64,000 nt of DNA from Microthyrium microscopicum (lineage: Eukaryota), in NCBI GenBank assembly GCA_010405405.1, contig MU004248.1:62001-126000 (forward strand), in the 5' to 3' direction. The notes under the pieces are model-generated. The model made no database searches. It worked only from the letters and a program-made list of their open reading frames with translations, and had not been told where the DNA came from. The translations under genes and the position numbers were made by a program. Shown here piece by piece: positions 34,196 through 39,658 of this stretch (within the stretch, counting starts at the first letter, position 1; each line of letters starts with the position of its first letter).

Positions 34196-36241
34196 ATGGC
34201 CGACTTACATCCTCCTCATACCAAAGAAACTGCTGTCGAATCCTCATATCCATCCTCTGTCAACTCAGTATCAAAGAGTGCTGATCCTTCTGTTATGGCT
34301 CCGGCCACCGCCCACGCCGAACCCAAAACTACCATGGATAACAAAGAAATCGCCCTAGTCGATGAAAAGAGTGAAGCCGTCTTCCCATCCTCTGATCTTG
34401 AAGAAGATACCGCCGAATATCCAAAAGGTTGGAAACTTGGTCTTATCTCAGTCGCCTTATGTCTAGCTGTCTTTTGCATGGCCCTCGATAACACAATCAT
34501 TGCCACTGCTATTCCTCGCATCACCGATCATTTCCACGCTCTCGATGATGTAGGATGGTATGTTTCAGTATATTTGTTGACCACTTGCTCTTTCCAGCTC
34601 ATCTTTGGCAAACTCTACACCTTTTATAGCATCAAGTGGGTCTTTTTGTCTGCACTTTTGGTCTTTGAAGTCGGTTCTGTAGTATGTGCTACTGCGCCGA
34701 CCTCTAATGCACTCATCGTCGGAAGAGCTATTGCCGGAGTTGGATCTGCTGGTATCTTCTCAGGCGCTATCCTCATCGTCACATATACCGTCCCTCTTTC
34801 GCAACGACCACTTTACACCGGATTCATCGGAGGAATGTACGGCATTGCATCTGTCGCTGGACCATTGATGGGAGGTGCCTTTACTGGTAAGAATATTCTG
34901 AATCAAAATACATTTCTTGAGCCAAGTTCAAGAAATACTCAAAATGACTGTCAGCGCATTCGATGGCTCCCATGGAATGCGATGGCTCACATAGCGTATT
35001 TTATGGATTTGATTATACCACGAAAAGACCAAATGATTTTTTGGAGAGTTTTGACTTTGAATAATTTTTTACTAACAAATTCTAGATAATCCCAAATTGA
35101 CATGGCGTTGGTGCTTTTATATCAACCTTCCTTTCGGTCTCGTTACCGCCGTCTTCATATTCATCTTCTTTAAGTCGCCCAAACGCGCAAAGATTCAGTC
35201 GACTATCATTCAACAACTGGATGCCATGGATCTTCCTGGAACAATTGTCTTCCTCCCTGGTGTGGTTTGCCTCTTGCTTGCTCTACAATGGGGCGGTACC
35301 AAGTACACTTGGGGAAGTGGCCGCATCATCGCGCTTCTTGTTGTGTCAGCACTCTTGATTATAACCTTTGTGGTTTTGCAATTCTTCCGTGGAGAAAAGG
35401 CAACTGTTCCTCCGCGGGTCTTCAAGAATCGTAATATCTGGTCTACCGCTGTCTTTGCTGCATTCCTTGGTGGTTCTTTCTTCGTCATGATGTTCTATGT
35501 ATGTACTTTGAAGATCTATTCCTGTGCATATGCTAATAATTCTATAGCTCCCGATTTGGTTCCAGGCCATCAAAGGCGCTTCGGCTGTGAAGTCCGGCAT
35601 CATGTCACTCCCATTCATCCTGGGCATGGTTATATTCTCCATCATCGCTGGTGGCGTCATTACAACTACAGGATACTACACGCCTTTCATGTATCTGTCC
35701 GCTGTTCTGATCCCAATCGGCGCTGGATTACTCTCGACCCTACAGCCAGATTCTGGCCATGCTAAATGGATTGGCTACCAGGCTATCTTTGGCTTTGGTA
35801 CTGGTGCTGGTTTCCAACAGCCCCTTCTTGCAGCTCAAGCTTGTCTTCCATTGGCTGACATTCCTATCGGCACTGCTATCATGATGTTCTCTCAGGTAAG
35901 CCCAATTCTCTCACACGACTGACTGTCCCTAACATTTCTAGATTCTTGGTGGCGCCATCATTGCTTCCGTTGGCCAAAATGTTTTCACTAACCAGCTCGT
36001 CCAAAACTTGATCAAGTCTGTCCCTGGTATCAACCCAAGCATTGTGCTCGCTGCTGGAGCCACTGAACTCAAGCGCGACGTACCATCACAATTCTACAAC
36101 GATGTACTAATCGCCTACAACAAGGCTATCGATCAGACTTTCTACGTATCCGTGGCCATGGGCGCGCTTTGCGCATTCCCGCTCATATTCGTGCAATGGA
36201 AGAGCGTCAAGGGCAAGCAGATTTCTACTGCAGCCGTCTAA
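34196..36241 (+). CDS. MFS drug:H+ antiporter (DHA2; AflT/MFS1-like), 3 introns
   Basis: [64 protein letters not shown]. Confidence 0.93.
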
Positions 36242-36895
36242 TGAATGATTATTTGAGGGAAAATCCTCTCGTTTGGGTATTTGATGCAAAGCCAAAGGCT
36301 GCATTGGATAGGCGTTTTGTGTGGAGCCTTTCAGGGCCTCAAAAGATGACATCGCAGCATCGCATTTTACACTGTCGGTTATGCCAGACAGCACTAGCGT
36401 TTAGACCTTACTGTATAGTCTTGTCTTGGTTGGTTAACAAGGATACCCCTCTCCTCATGTTGGTTACTTGCTTTAGAGAAGATAGACGCTCTCCTCTAAT
36501 ACATATTTTGTAATTTCTTCAAGTTTCAAGGTGCTACTCGCGACTGCTGCTTTGGATCCAATCATTATTCTTGCTAATATGCTTAGTATTTGACACCTGA
36601 TCAAGCGATGCCATTAGAACGAGTGGTGATATACAGGTCAAAATATATTTTATATGTTCTTTGATCGTACTATGTTACACTACCTTCCAGAATAGGGTAT
36701 TGATACTGCCAGGAGAACAAAGCGCTGGTGTTTGTTTGTCGTCAAATCGCCATTCAGCTACAATAGCCTTGCGTGATCGCGACAGATACCTTCCACTTCC
36801 TTCCGACACTCCTTCTCAATGCAGTAATGAGTCAACGTAGCAAGCCAATCCAAACACGTTGCCATACCGCAACGGGTAAGTTTAACCCCGAGACT

Positions 36896-39277
36896 TCAAA
36901 TTGAACATACTTCCATGCAAGCCGTAAGTTTGGTCAGGCGTCGACCGTGATGTCTTAAGTTGAAAAATGGAATCTTATGGCTCGGATGCGGGTCGTGGAT
37001 CTGTATGCTGGCCTGAACGTCCATTCTGGTCGGTGTGAACTGCCAGGCGGAGCCATCGAGTTTCTCAACTCCAAATCCGATCGCTTGAAGGGCATACAAG
37101 AAGTCCTTCCACGATACTTCTCCTAAGTGGTGCCTTGTGGAAGGTTTATGAAACATCGTGCTGAACACTTTCATCGCCCGGGCATCGACTTGAAAGGCTG
37201 GTTCCTGTTGTGGCAGCTCTACTATTGCTGCTGGCTCTGCTGTGGCGGTGTCTGTATGAGGTAGACCGTGGGTCTTGACCTTTTGCTTAGGATTGCTTGC
37301 TGTATGCTTCTCATTTGGATGGCTTGGTTCAGTAGAGATGTGCCAGTTGTCAACCTGCTGGGTCAGGCTTTCCTCTTTCGGCTCTGAATCCTCCGGCAAA
37401 GATGCAGTCCATTCAGGTGTTCTCTCCAGCTGCCGCTTCGAGAAGATCTGTTGAAGCGCTAGCACTCGAGGAGATTCAGTGGCTTTATCTAGTAGCTCTT
37501 GCCGCAATTGATCCCAAAATTGGTCAAGGTTGGCCTCCGCTGCTCGCATTGCACAGACGTTTTCCTTGGTTCTCGCTTTTCCCGCTGGGTAGCGAAACCG
37601 GCCTTTCAAAGGCATTCCAAGGGTGATGAGGTAGTCCGATACATTTGCCTTGGCGGTAACGTACGTCTTGTTCAGTTTGTTCAACTGGTCAAGCGCAGGG
37701 GACAGTTTCTTCTCGTGCTGATTTGGAACATACGCGCGCCAATGCGGTAGTAGCTCTAGTTGATAGATGCAGTGGGCGAGAATAGAGAGGTCCCCTAACA
37801 ACTGCATTACTAACGGTGTTATCAATCTACGGCATACCGTCTCTTTTTCGTAAAGGCGTGTTATTTCGTCCAAAACACTGCCGAGCCCAATGTTGTCAAT
37901 ATGCTGGCTTTGCCCGATGAGAATCAACAGGTGGAGCAGATGACGGACGTTCCTGTCCGTTGATTTCTCCAAAATGCCTGCTCGAAGCTGTATCTTATTC
38001 GGATTCACTGAATCCCGCACAAAGTACGAACGCATGAGTGGTGACCCAGGAATTTGGTCGTTTAGGTCGAAAGTGAGGCTAGTGATGCATGTTCGAATCG
38101 TGCGATGCAGGAGATAAAATTCTCTCTCATATTTCTGCGGTGCTGTAATGTGGTCAACATCTTTCGTCTTGAGCTTCAGATCAAGAAGCTCATCGCGTAG
38201 TAATCCCCAAATCTCCAGCCGCTTCAATGCCAAATCGATGGCAAGTGTGATGCCTCTGTGCCATACAAAGTTCGGGCTTTCAGGCGGACAAAGCAGAGGA
38301 TGCTTTCGTCCGTTGGTGTCTGGGAGAAATATAGCGCCATGTTCCTTGCTAGTTATGATAGCTTCTTCGTAATAGGCAGGATCTTCTCGAAGGCCAGACA
38401 GATGATCCTCCGTTGCTGTGACCTTTGCTGATGCGATGGATACAATACGTTCTAGGATCAGGCCAGATGGAAGTTTATACGGTGCTTCCTCGAGAGAATC
38501 AAGCAATGAAACAGCTGAATCGGAAACAGCTGACTCGGAAACAGCTACCAAGTCTGGCGGAGGTGGACTTGTGACGTTGGGTGTATATAGCATGTTATTG
38601 GTCAGGTCATGCAGTATTTTCAAGCATATTTCAAACAGGAATCTGTAGAGGCGTTCTTGAAATTGCAGAATGAGAAGTCCCTTTCCTGGAAGGGCAGCAT
38701 GGCGTGATCGTAACAGATTGGTAATGTCTGGATCGTCCTCGAAAGAAATTACTCTGCCATACGTATCAGGAGTCTTTTGGCCGGCTAGAAGCATGCCATG
38801 GCAACCTACTACAAAGCAAATCTTGATTGCACCAATCGAGATGCCAAGACTGGCAGCTTTGAGATCCATTCTTGCAAAAACTTCGGGGTGATTGTGTCCT
38901 CGCGAACTAAGCAGGAGAGGCAGAATCCGAGGATTGAGAAGGTCTTCGAGATTTATGTACGGCCATTGCCATGCGTCGGCATGTTCGGCTTGATAGTTGG
39001 AATAAGAAATCATCTTCCACGCATCAAAATCCGGGCGATGAACCTTGGGCATCGTTGGCCAAGCCGCCAGAAGTAATGTCCGTCGCTGAGCTGATGTCTT
39101 TTTCTTCCATCGAGCTTGTATTGTGGGCTCATGTCCGCAAATGATCTGGTTCAACTTGTTCCAGTGATCGTGTATCTGGTAGGACAGTCGTTTAGTCTCT
39201 GAGCGGAGAGCCAACGGAGTCAGAGTTGGCTGGTCAACATCAAGGAGGAAAGTTGGTGCACTCCAATCTGAGGCCAT
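36896..39277 (-). CDS. 793-aa uncharacterised fungal protein with a C-terminal HicA-like domain; probable frameshift near the C-terminus
   Basis: Intronless ORF; ARWKKKT..QR..LLLAAWPTMP..HRPDF; C-terminal W.DF..AL..IGF..EKL.GS.WQF..IQIHDPHP. Confidence 0.8.
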   Translation of the reverse strand: MASDWSAPTFLLDVDQPTLTPLALRSETKRLSYQIHDHWNKLNQIICGHEPTIQARWKKKTSAQRRTLLLAAWPTMPKVHRPDFDAWKMISYSNYQAEHADAWQWPYINLEDLLNPRILPLLLSSRGHNHPEVFARMDLKAASLGISIGAIKICFVVGCHGMLLAGQKTPDTYGRVISFEDDPDITNLLRSRHAALPGKGLLILQFQERLYRFLFEICLKILHDLTNNMLYTPNVTSPPPPDLVAVSESAVSDSAVSLLDSLEEAPYKLPSGLILERIVSIASAKVTATEDHLSGLREDPAYYEEAIITSKEHGAIFLPDTNGRKHPLLCPPESPNFVWHRGITLAIDLALKRLEIWGLLRDELLDLKLKTKDVDHITAPQKYEREFYLLHRTIRTCITSLTFDLNDQIPGSPLMRSYFVRDSVNPNKIQLRAGILEKSTDRNVRHLLHLLILIGQSQHIDNIGLGSVLDEITRLYEKETVCRRLITPLVMQLLGDLSILAHCIYQLELLPHWRAYVPNQHEKKLSPALDQLNKLNKTYVTAKANVSDYLITLGMPLKGRFRYPAGKARTKENVCAMRAAEANLDQFWDQLRQELLDKATESPRVLALQQIFSKRQLERTPEWTASLPEDSEPKEESLTQQVDNWHISTEPSHPNEKHTASNPKQKVKTHGLPHTDTATAEPAAIVELPQQEPAFQVDARAMKVFSTMFHKPSTRHHLGEVSWKDFLYALQAIGFGVEKLDGSAWQFTPTRMDVQASIQIHDPHPSHKIPFFNLRHHGRRLTKLTACMEVCSI

Positions 39278-39658
39278 GTTTAAAGTTCGGGAGGGATATA
39301 TAGATCCGAATTTCCAAGTTCCAGGTTTACTCGAGGAAGATGGTCAAGGCCTCGAAGGCCTTATCAAAGACGGGCTGCTATTTAGAATTTAGGGAGAATC
39401 ACGTATGGTTGCTTTCTGGCTAAGATAAAGTCAACAAGCGAGCACCTTGAATTTAGCTACCCGGGATACCACTGGGGAACCACCTCAGTTTTGGAGGTGA
39501 GTTTCAATGCACGCTAAGATATCAAAACAACATACCTCAGGAGCTGGAGGTGACCACAACCACCGCTAATCGAACAGGAACACTATATATGGTTTGAGAG
39601 CAGTAGAGCAAGTACCTCATGATCATTGCTTGCTCGTTCTCTTGCTAGACGAGCTCTG

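What the first reader, a model, noticed from the sequence alone, without database searches (positions are those of the whole stretch)
36882..39277. Large fungal protein ending in a HicA-toxin-like domain: candidate eukaryotic RNase effector
Seen: the C-terminal ~70 aa (about 37120 down to 36900) read VSWKDFLYALQAIGFGVEKLDGSAWQFTPTRMDVQASIQIHDPHPSHKIPFFNLRHHGRRL, and a low-complexity linker separates them from a ~620-aa N-terminal body. Established: a bacterial HicA mRNA-interferase subfamily (dsRBD-like fold) has the layout W.D...L...G......GS...F......H.PHP followed by a helix. Inference: this is a HicA-like nuclease fused to a large regulatory or sensor body that could replace HicB in cis, as in a fungal cell-death, non-self-recognition or antiviral effector. 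The gene is intronless and lies between an MFS pump gene and MET7. I found no adjacent HicB-like ORF.
Basis: partly seen in the sequence, partly recalled or inferred. Interest (0 to 1): 0.8.

Follow-up and report, generated by a model that had tools for sequence, protein, structure and literature searches.

The report
Fungal protein ending in HicA-like domain
This fungal gene belongs to a large, unstudied and fast-changing protein family whose tail is a true relative of a bacterial RNA-cutting toxin (HicA) but lacks that toxin's known catalytic residue, so what it does is open and testable.

Summary
An intronless 793-aa ORF (36896-39277, minus strand) ends in the quoted peptide. Its last ~100 residues are a genuine HicA-family domain. 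Two independent fold searches put HicA structures at ranks 1-4. A profile-profile chain links it to a bacterial HicA subgroup (N-terminal helix, GSR, FH.PHP) at 95% probability. That subgroup links to canonical HicA at 94% and sits in real hicA-hicB cassettes (5 of 6).

The domain differs from a toxin-antitoxin toxin in several ways. The proven catalytic His of GSH is Val/Ala/Ile (His in 0 of 286), and the subgroup's Arg is also gone. The window has no HicB. The domain is joined by a disordered linker to a ~630-aa helical body with no known relatives (fusion kept in 39 of 43 homologues). The H.PHP loop, W745 and a basic patch are nearly invariant.

The family is large (992 clusters at 50% identity), duplicated, and does not follow species relationships. 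The window's copy has a reproducible 1-nt frame slip that replaces its last ~12 residues.

RNase activity, control by the body in cis, and any cell-death or defence role are inferences, not results. Verdict: new variant of a known kind, of moderate interest.

The parts
36896..39277 (-). Whole ORF, 793 aa plus stop; no intron needed
   Evidence: homologues cover 90-98% of it
37382..39277 (-). N-terminal body, aa 1-632: mostly alpha-helical, found only in fungi, no Pfam family and no specific known fold
   Evidence: helices 21-614, model pTM 0.80; no Pfam family; only generic helical-bundle matches, best Z 7.5; no PDB sequence match; present in 119 of 146 domain-bearing representatives
37208..37381 (-). 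Disordered linker, aa 633-690
   Evidence: pLDDT below 50 over 633-690
37265..37288 (-). Conserved basic motif inside the linker (aa 664-671, K.K.KT[RH]G): possibly a nuclear localisation or processing signal; function untested
   Evidence: K666 and K668 at least 90% conserved; K.K[TSI][RHQ] in 34 of 38, longer form in 26 of 38
36899..37207 (-). C-terminal HicA-like domain, aa 691-793
37142..37198 (-). N-terminal strand-helix extension of the domain (aa 694-712), shared with the bacterial subgroup
   Evidence: E694-697 and H699-708; the hhalign alignment extends through it; the Atlas structural match spans 697-793
36923..37117 (-). HicA core, alpha-beta-beta-beta-alpha (aa 721-785)
   Evidence: H723-732, E735-741, E744-749, E758-761, H771-785; 1whz Z 5.5 on 717-791
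37043..37054 (-). G742-S743-A744-W745. A744 occupies the place of HicA's catalytic His (GSH) and of the bacterial subgroup's Arg (GSR)
   Evidence: alignments; position 744 is V194/A58/I21/S6 with His in 0 of 286; W745 in 286 of 286
36983..36997 (-). H761-D-P-H764-P loop (family consensus HEPHP), the best-conserved motif of the fungal and bacterial subgroup domains
   Evidence: H761 283/286, P763 285/286, H764 282/285; invariant in 6 of 6 bacterial subgroup members
36929..36931 (-). A-run where this copy's frame slips by one base relative to the family
   Evidence: identical in contigs of 3 runs from 2 studies
36882..36928 (-). Out-of-frame continuation that encodes the family-consensus tail (final beta-strand) and its stop codon
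   Evidence: compared with the consensus

Best explanation
The gene encodes a member of a large family found only in fungi. A helical body of about 630 aa with no known relatives is joined through a disordered linker to a C-terminal domain of about 100 aa. That domain is a true homologue of bacterial HicA toxins. It is closest to the HicA subgroup that has an extra N-terminal helix, GSR in place of GSH, and an FH.PHP loop, and that in bacteria is encoded directly upstream of a HicB (PF05534) antitoxin gene.

Shown: the homology, the fold, the conserved fusion, loss of the canonical catalytic His, near-invariance of the H.PHP loop, W745 and a basic patch, and rapid duplicative evolution of the family.

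Inferred:
- The domain was captured from bacteria.
- It still works on RNA. The fold is dsRBD-like, and K739, K768, R775, R779 and R780 are conserved.
- The two histidines of the H.PHP loop lie beside the canonical active site and are the functional centre, either for cleavage or for tight RNA binding.
- The helical body targets or restrains the domain, since no separate antitoxin exists.

My odds: true HicA homologue about 0.9; acts on RNA about 0.6; is an active ribonuclease about 0.4.

This window's copy carries a frame slip that replaces the last strand of the domain, so it may be impaired.
For: ORF and peptide.

Family size:
- 48 fungal homologues at 27-39% identity among 8000 scored candidates.
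- The 99-aa domain alone finds 992 representatives at E<=1e-3 and 595 at E<=1e-10 among 1.84 billion.

Fixed architecture:
- 119 of 146 listed representatives also match the body. The 27 that do not are all 261 aa or shorter.
- 39 of the 43 whole-protein homologues whose body is complete carry the domain.

Fold:
- The model of an intact domain has pLDDT 85.5.
- Foldseek ranks 1-4 are HicA-family chains: 6g26_E/F (probability 0.99/0.98, target TM 0.68/0.71), 4c26 and 1whz.
- An exhaustive scan of 48,161 chains puts 1whz (Z 5.6), 6g26 (5.0), 4p78 (5.0) and 5yrz (4.5) at ranks 1-4. The next, unrelated, chain scores 3.8.
- The window's own full-length model matches 1whz at Z 5.5 over 717-791.
- The Atlas's independent model matches a bacterial 96-aa HicA cluster at TM 0.68/0.73 over 87 residues.

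Profiles:
- Fungal domain vs bacterial subgroup: 95.2% (E 2.5e-8, 50 columns) and 95.0% (E 4e-8, 60 columns, including the N-terminal helix).
- Subgroup vs canonical HicA: 94.2%, E 1.1e-7.
- Control: the real score of 53.2 compares with a maximum of 19.0 in 60 column shuffles.
- The fungal HMM ranks the 6 subgroup members first (11.8-20.8 bits). 20 of 28 real HicAs score above all 28 reversed decoys.

Pfam: HicA_toxin is the only recurring family, in 5 of 38 members (best E 5e-5) and 3 of 80. E. coli's own HicA scores only 29.4 bits.

The bacterial subgroup is a real TA toxin group: 5 of 6 downstream ORFs are Pfam HicB at 45-85 bits.

Conservation: H761 283/286, H764 282/285, W745 286/286, K739 278/286, R779 277/283, R780 279/282. 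The domain is the best-kept part of the protein: 50% mean identity against 31% for the body.

Literature (passages read): the B. pseudomallei HicA paper notes that many HicAs carry a His at residue 40, close in space to catalytic His24. That this residue corresponds to window H764 is my inference from the alignment.
Against: Homology:
- No member reaches Pfam's gathering score. The window's isolated domain scores 15 bits against a cut-off of 27, and the full-length protein gives no HicA hit.
- Sequence and profile searches of the PDB find nothing.
- All Foldseek E-values are above 0.001. Z scores of 4.5-5.6 lie in a range that the tool warns can reflect a common arrangement.
- The direct profile match to canonical HicA is weak: 7.5%, E 0.0047. 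It does beat all 60 shuffles, but only by 21.8 to 18.3.

RNase activity:
- The one residue shown by mutagenesis to be needed in four HicAs, the His of GSH, is hydrophobic here, with His in 0 of 286.
- The Arg that the bacterial subgroup has at that place is absent too.
- No toxicity, RNA binding or cleavage has been measured for any member, nor, as far as I found, for the bacterial subgroup.

This copy: the frame slip removes the conserved final strand.
Confidence: 0.55

Rival explanations
1. The domain is a catalytically dead HicA fold. Fungi keep it as an RNA-binding or protein-binding module in an ordinary, non-toxic cellular job, and it cuts nothing.
For: The canonical catalytic His is absent in 286 of 286 domains, and the subgroup's Arg is absent too. 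No antitoxin gene is present, as expected if nothing needs neutralising. The fold is dsRBD-like, and dsRBDs appear among the weaker Foldseek hits (7v6b, 2mdr). The basic residues are conserved.
Against: The most conserved feature is a two-histidine loop next to the canonical active site. It is shared with bacterial relatives that are paired with antitoxins and so presumably toxic. A housekeeping role fits poorly with 54% identity between two Alternaria homologues, 41% between two Hypoxylon homologues, tandem duplication and truncated copies.
Confidence: 0.3
2. It is a single-polypeptide toxin-antidote, self/non-self or defence element. The HicA-like tail is the killing part and the helical body holds it in check until a trigger arrives, as in one-gene killer/resistance systems.
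For: The domain descends from a toxin-antitoxin toxin. The fusion is conserved without any HicB. The family is very diverse (992 clusters at 50% identity). It does not follow species relationships: the Amanita protein is 53% identical to the Macrophomina one, while congeners share only 41-54%. There is a tandem duplicate (P0050), at least 2 loci in Fusarium decemcellulare, short forms on megabase contigs, and a frame-slipped copy here. This is the birth-and-death pattern usual for conflict genes.
Against: No toxicity, trigger or genetic effect is known. The catalytic residue of the ancestral toxin is lost. The body shows no likeness to HicB. Rapid evolution has other possible causes. I could not count copies per genome or test linkage to mobile elements, because no fungal genome was available.
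Confidence: 0.12
3. The likeness to HicA is chance or convergence on a common small alpha/beta fold.
For: The domain is short, absolute scores are modest, and all Pfam hits are below threshold.
Against: Three independent kinds of evidence agree. Fold searches by two methods on two models. Profile-profile comparison at 95% with clean shuffles. HMM ranking over decoys. The shared motifs are in the same order and register, including the extra N-terminal helix.
Confidence: 0.03

Closest known systems
Bacterial HicA subgroup with an N-terminal helix, GSR and FH.PHP, encoded upstream of a PF05534 HicB antitoxin (loci L051, L059, L060, L062, L063, L065 here; Atlas cluster 'HicA protein', 96 aa)
   Same: The N-terminal helix, W.D/E, G..GS and FH.PHP occur in the same order and register. 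hhalign probability is 95%. TM is 0.73 over 87 residues. Both lack the GSH histidine.
   Different: The bacterial proteins are free-standing (84-101 aa), keep an invariant Arg after GS (6 of 6), and have a HicB partner (5 of 6). The fungal domain has Val/Ala/Ile followed by an invariant Trp, an extra C-terminal strand, no HicB, and is fused to a 630-aa body.
Canonical HicA mRNA-interferase toxins (B. pseudomallei 6G26/4C26, Y. pestis HicA3 4P78, S. pneumoniae 5YRZ, E. coli 6HPB, T. thermophilus TTHA1913 1WHZ)
   Same: The dsRBD-like alpha-beta-beta-beta-alpha fold. The G-S turn between strands 1 and 2. A His in the strand 3 to helix 2 loop.
   Different: The catalytic His of GSH, needed for toxicity or RNase activity and masked by HicB in the complexes, is absent. 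The direct profile match is weak. There is no operon partner.
Bacterial HicA-HicB fusion proteins (Atlas cluster of 207-aa proteins; HicB in 96% and HicA_toxin in 60% of members)
   Same: A HicA-type domain and a second domain sit in one polypeptide. The structural match to the window's domain has TM 0.73 by query.
   Different: There the fused partner is the known antitoxin. Here it is an unrelated helical body.
Single-gene killer/resistance proteins of filamentous fungi, such as Spok (recalled; not tested in any call)
   Same: Concept only: one large, intronless, fast-evolving, patchily distributed fungal protein that could combine a harmful part and its control.
   Different: No sequence or fold comparison was made. 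Those proteins are not known to contain a HicA fold. No drive or killing is known for this family.

Membership tests
HicA domain family (homology; dsRBD-like YcfA/HicA fold) | Significant profile-level similarity to bona fide members | tested here: met
   95% to the bacterial subgroup, whose members all pass Pfam's cut-off at 36-48 bits. That subgroup matches canonical HicA at 94%. Shuffles reach at most 19.0 against the real 53.2. 20 of 28 real HicAs score above all decoys.
HicA domain family (homology; dsRBD-like YcfA/HicA fold) | Alpha-beta-beta-beta-alpha fold that superposes on solved HicA structures | tested here: met
   HicA-family chains take ranks 1-4 in Foldseek and in an exhaustive scan of 48,161 chains. 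Target TM 0.68-0.71; Z 4.5-5.6. The window's own model matches at Z 5.5.
Pfam PF07927 HicA_toxin as currently modelled | Score at or above the gathering cut-off (27 bits) | tested here: not met
   The window's domain scores 15 bits. 5 of 38 and 3 of 80 members give hits, all below threshold. This is an operational threshold: E. coli HicA itself scores only 29.4 bits.
Type II HicAB toxin-antitoxin toxin (functional class) | Catalytic His in the G-S-H turn | tested here: not met
   Position 744 is V194/A58/I21/S6, with His in 0 of 286. The role of this His comes from passages of PMC11594946 and PMC3969222.
Type II HicAB toxin-antitoxin toxin (functional class) | Adjacent hicB antitoxin gene | tested here: not met
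   No HicB-like ORF in six frames of the 64-kb window at E<=10, using a small profile of 5 sequences. The body is not HicB-like.
Type II HicAB toxin-antitoxin toxin (functional class) | Small free-standing protein (about 55-100 aa) | tested here: not met
   The domain is the C-terminus of a 793-aa protein. 39 of 43 homologues with a complete body keep the fusion.
Type II HicAB toxin-antitoxin toxin (functional class) | Toxicity and RNA cleavage | not testable with these tools
   This needs expression and RNase assays.
Bacterial HicA subgroup (N-terminal helix / GSR / FH.PHP) | N-terminal helix plus W.D/E, G..GS and FH.PHP in register | tested here: met
   Window residues W723, D725, G742-S743 and H761-P763-H764-P765. 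Helix 699-708.
Bacterial HicA subgroup (N-terminal helix / GSR / FH.PHP) | Invariant Arg after G-S | tested here: not met
   Arg in 6 of 6 bacterial members but in 1 of 286 fungal domains.
Canonical dsRNA-binding domain (dsRBD) | Specific structural or sequence match to dsRBDs | tested here: inconclusive
   Only weak Foldseek rows (7v6b_B, 2mdr; probability 0.09-0.23). No Pfam dsrm hit.

The most novel reading that the evidence does not exclude
Fungi took a bacterial toxin-antitoxin toxin and rebuilt it as a one-gene system. The HicA-derived tail is a latent RNA-targeting killing module that uses a two-histidine loop in place of the classical catalytic His. The fungus-specific helical body is its built-in antidote or sensor. 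The conserved K.K.KT[RH]G motif in the linker would then be where the tail is released or routed to the nucleus. Such a family could underlie allorecognition, spore killing or antiviral suicide across Dikarya.
Probability: 0.12. Interest if true: 0.85.

Novelty: new variant of a known kind. Interest (0 to 1): 0.55.

Why it matters
HicA toxins are treated as prokaryotic. The 2024 HicAB review mentions eukaryotes once in the passages I read, and only for viperin.

Here a HicA-derived domain is fixed at the end of a large fungal protein family of about a thousand 50%-identity clusters. I found no study of this family and no Pfam model that captures it.

Two questions become directly testable:
- Can a HicA fold act on RNA without the GSH histidine? 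This also bears on the bacterial GSR/FH.PHP subgroup, whose mechanism I did not find described.
- What do fungi do with a toxin domain that has no antitoxin: regulation in cis, programmed cell death, conflict, or plain RNA binding?

The result also gives annotators a handle. A profile built from this family would label hundreds of 'hypothetical proteins'.

Tried and rejected
- **Sequence searches of the PDB.** Neither the domain, the domain profile nor the whole-family profile (best E 0.03, a designed helical protein) gave a usable match.
- **hhalign of the fungal profile against E. coli HicA alone.** Nothing (probability 0.4%).
- **Own genome.** None is held, so copy number and paralogues in this organism could not be counted.
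- **Prokaryote genome scan.** The single-protein query P0051 found 36 loci, but all match only residues 1-17 of its low-complexity head, not the domain. That method finds close relatives only.
- **HicA in five Phenylobacterium genomes.** None found.
- **N-terminal body.** Foldseek TM was at most 0.21. The exhaustive scan gave only generic helical bundles over residues 271-516 (Z at most 7.5, inside the tool's stated noise range for helical proteins). No PDB sequence match. hhalign against HicB gave probability 0.7%. The Atlas neighbours auto-named 'Ipa protein' score 0.81-0.87, which is a lead only.
- **Complex prediction, body 1-632 vs domain 690-793.** No answer: score 0.00 against a mark of 0.34; my alignments were not used and the controls were not folded. 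This says nothing either way about docking.
- **Expression.** No RNA holder is listed for the gene. The three runs laid are contigs and cannot show transcription.
- **Literature.** Searches for HicA with fungi, eukaryotes or Ascomycota returned only bacterial TA papers, the assembler HiCanu, or 2-hydroxyisocaproic acid. 'Ipa protein' with fungal terms returned Shigella Ipa papers (one search was too loose to be useful). PMC7501697 was listed for HicA, but its main text has no occurrence. The library holds only open PMC papers and bioRxiv, so a description elsewhere is not excluded.
- **Earlier notes of this scan.** Nothing by sequence, and only unrelated items by words.
Full report
**1. The observation**

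The minus strand carries one uninterrupted ORF, 36896..39277, of 793 codons. After GRRLT the reading frame drifts away from the family consensus and ends in a short unrelated tail. The neighbouring frame reads a tail that fits the consensus of the homologues and stops at 36882-36884. So this copy has a one-base frame slip at an A-run (36929-36931). Contigs of three public runs from two studies cover 36700-39400 with 0 differences and 0 gaps. The slip is therefore in the DNA and is not an error of one assembly, although the two studies may have sequenced the same strain.

**2. The family**

A word-indexed search found 48 homologues besides the protein itself. They share 27-39% identity and most cover 90-98% of the query. 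All are 'hypothetical', and every one that carries an organism name is fungal: mostly Ascomycota, plus one Amanita. The isolated 99-aa tail, searched exhaustively against 1.84 billion representatives, finds 992 clusters at E<=1e-3 and 595 at E<=1e-10. In the 150 listed it always lies at the C-terminus. Of the 146 listed representatives other than the window's protein, 119 also match the N-terminal body, and the 27 that do not are all 261 aa or shorter. Among the 48 homologues found through the whole protein, 43 have a body that reaches its end, and 39 of those 43 carry the domain. The fusion is therefore the rule. Four possible body-only forms remain unexplained.

**3. Is the tail a HicA domain?**

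Single sequences against Pfam give only sub-threshold hits. The window's isolated tail scores 15 bits (cut-off 27), and the full-length protein gives none. HicA_toxin is hit by 5 of 38 members (best E 5e-5) and by 3 of 80 representatives. It is nonetheless the only family that recurs, and the real E. coli HicA reaches only 29.4 bits in a six-frame search. Sequence and profile searches of the PDB found nothing.

Structure is clearer. An AlphaFold model of an intact short member (P0051; pLDDT 85.5) has a core of helix, three to four strands and helix, with an extra N-terminal strand-helix and a C-terminal strand.
- Foldseek's four best PDB hits are all HicA-family chains: 6g26_E and 6g26_F (probability 0.99 and 0.98, target TM 0.68 and 0.71), 4c26 and 1whz. 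No E-value is below 0.001.
- An exhaustive alignment to 48,161 chains, independent of Foldseek, ranks 1whz (Z 5.6), 6g26 (5.0), 4p78 (5.0) and 5yrz (4.5) first. The best unrelated chain scores 3.8, and E. coli HicA (6hpb) is at rank 9 with Z 3.0.
- The window's own full-length model (pLDDT 78.4, pTM 0.80) matches 1whz at Z 5.5 over residues 717-791.
- The Atlas's separate model of the same protein matches a bacterial 96-aa 'HicA protein' cluster at TM 0.68/0.73 over 87 residues. It also matches a bacterial HicA-HicB fusion cluster.

**4. The link by sequence profiles**

To obtain real HicAs from a tool, I searched 61 unnamed bacterial genomes with the Pfam model. This gave 28 hits in 15 genomes, all over the cut-off. 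Translation showed two kinds.
- Eighteen sequences (17 of these hits plus E. coli HicA) have the classical G-S/D-H turn (alignment A4).
- Six have GSR and an FH.PHP loop after W.D/E...L...G (alignment A3).
- The remaining five hits, four of which carry an in-frame TAG, were left out of both alignments.

Five of the six downstream ORFs in the second group are Pfam HicB at 45-85 bits, so this subgroup sits in real hicAB cassettes.

The hhalign results were:
- Fungal domain vs subgroup: 95.2% (E 2.5e-8, 50 columns).
- With the full bacterial ORFs: 95.0% (E 4e-8, 60 columns). The alignment now runs through an N-terminal helix that both share.
- Subgroup vs classical HicA: 94.2% (E 1.1e-7).
- Fungal vs classical HicA directly: only 7.5% (E 0.0047), but in the same register.

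Controls: 60 column shuffles of each bacterial alignment reach at most 19.0 (real score 53.2) and 18.3 (real score 21.8). An HMM of 37 fungal domains ranks the six subgroup members first (11.8-20.8 bits), and 20 of 28 real HicAs lie above all 28 reversed decoys. I take homology as established, at about 0.9.

**5. What the domain has and lacks**

The review PMC11594946 and the B. pseudomallei paper PMC3969222 (passages read) report that the His of the G-S-H turn is needed for toxicity or RNase activity. This is His24 in B. pseudomallei, His28 in Y. pestis HicA3, His36 in S. pneumoniae and His23 in E. coli. HicB buries this residue in the complexes.

In the alignments that position is Arg in the bacterial subgroup (6 of 6) and Ala744 in the window. 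Across 288 fungal domains it is V194, A58, I21, S6 and a few others. It is His in 0 of the 286 that have a residue there, and Arg in 1.

The conserved residues are W745 (286/286), H761 (283/286), P763 (285/286), H764 (282/285), K739 (278/286), K768 (271/286), R775 (270/286), R779 (277/283) and R780 (279/282). The window's own copy reads HDPHP where the consensus is HEPHP.

The B. pseudomallei paper remarks that many HicAs have a His at residue 40, close in space to His24. From I infer that this is the position of H764. A two-histidine loop beside the old active site, invariant both in the fungal family and in bacterial relatives that have antitoxins, is the best candidate for the functional centre. 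Whether it cleaves or only binds RNA is not known.

**6. The rest of the protein and the surroundings**

Residues 21-614 are almost entirely helical, and 633-690 are disordered. The body has:
- no Pfam family;
- no PDB sequence match;
- no specific fold match, only generic helical bundles with Z at most 7.5;
- no likeness to HicB (probability 0.7%).

A docking job for body against domain returned no answer (reported only as something tried). Inside the linker a short basic motif, K.K.KT[RH]G, is conserved. The short form is in 34 of 38 members and the longer form in 26 of 38. Its meaning is untested.

The neighbouring genes are an MFS transporter gene and an FPGS/Mur-ligase-type gene. The window holds no HicB-like ORF and no second copy of the domain.

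**7. Evolutionary behaviour**

The domain is the best-conserved part. The window's protein against 37 homologues averages 50% identity in the domain and 31% in the body. Relationships do not follow species:
- two Alternaria homologues share 54% identity;
- two Hypoxylon homologues share 41%;
- four Aspergillus homologues share 43-52%;
- the Amanita (basidiomycete) protein is 53% identical to that of Macrophomina.

The nearest relative of the window's protein, P0050 (1751 aa), is two complete tandem copies of body plus domain. Fusarium decemcellulare has at least two loci. Several short forms lie on megabase contigs. Together with the frame-slipped copy here, this looks like birth-and-death evolution. 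That pattern fits a conflict or defence role but does not prove one.

I could not count copies in this genome, because none is held. I also had no fungal genome collection to search.

**8. Verdict**

- The HicA likeness is real and traces to a specific bacterial subgroup.
- The protein is not a HicAB toxin in the defining sense: it has no catalytic His, no HicB, and is not free-standing.

My best reading is an RNA-directed effector or binding module, captured from a bacterial toxin-antitoxin system and placed under the control of a fungus-specific body. I put the odds that it is an active RNase at about 0.4.

I found no description of such fungal proteins in the searchable open literature. Automatic Pfam labels do already mark some members: 26% of one Atlas cluster. 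I class it as a new variant of a known kind, with moderate interest.

Noticed in passing
window 36882-36935 (minus strand): This copy has a 1-nt frame slip at an A-run (36929-36931). It swaps the conserved last strand of the domain for 11 unrelated residues, while the consensus tail survives in the neighbouring frame. The sequence is identical in contigs of 3 runs from 2 studies.
   Followed up: yes
window 37265-37288 (aa 664-671): A conserved basic motif, K.K.KT[RH]G, lies inside the otherwise disordered linker (short form in 34 of 38 members). It could be a nuclear localisation signal or a processing site.
   Followed up: partly
P0050 (1751 aa, closest relative found): This protein consists of two complete tandem copies of body plus HicA-like domain, so a tandem duplication exists in another genome or gene model.
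   Followed up: yes
loci L051, L059, L060, L062, L063, L065: This bacterial HicA subgroup lacks the classical GSH histidine (it has GSR plus FH.PHP plus an extra N-terminal helix), yet it is paired with PF05534 HicB antitoxins. I did not find its catalytic mechanism described, though I made no search aimed at it.
   Followed up: partly
loci L041, L050, L061, L064: Four of the 28 bacterial HicA hits each carry one in-frame stop, and in every case it is TAG. They may be pseudogenes or something else; I did not examine them.
   Followed up: no
L065:410-775 (minus strand): The ORF downstream of this subgroup HicA begins like a HicB but gives no Pfam hit and overlaps the toxin ORF. A frame disruption is possible.
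   Followed up: no
Atlas clusters nearest window aa 1-640: The neighbouring fungal clusters are auto-named 'Ipa protein' (scores 0.87 and 0.81, leads only). I found no paper on a fungal 'Ipa protein'.
   Followed up: partly
P0369, P0331, P0379, P0404, P0325: Family members of 155-305 aa lie on contigs of 0.9-8.8 Mb, so contig ends did not cut them. They may be truncated gene models, decayed copies or real short forms.
   Followed up: no
P0036, P0037, P0039, P0040: Four homologues have a complete body but no C-terminal domain. They may be body-only forms or truncated models.
   Followed up: no
window 34196-35922 (plus strand): The MFS transporter gene next door is split over several ORFs in different frames, as expected for a gene with introns. 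Only the first piece was checked against Pfam.
   Followed up: partly
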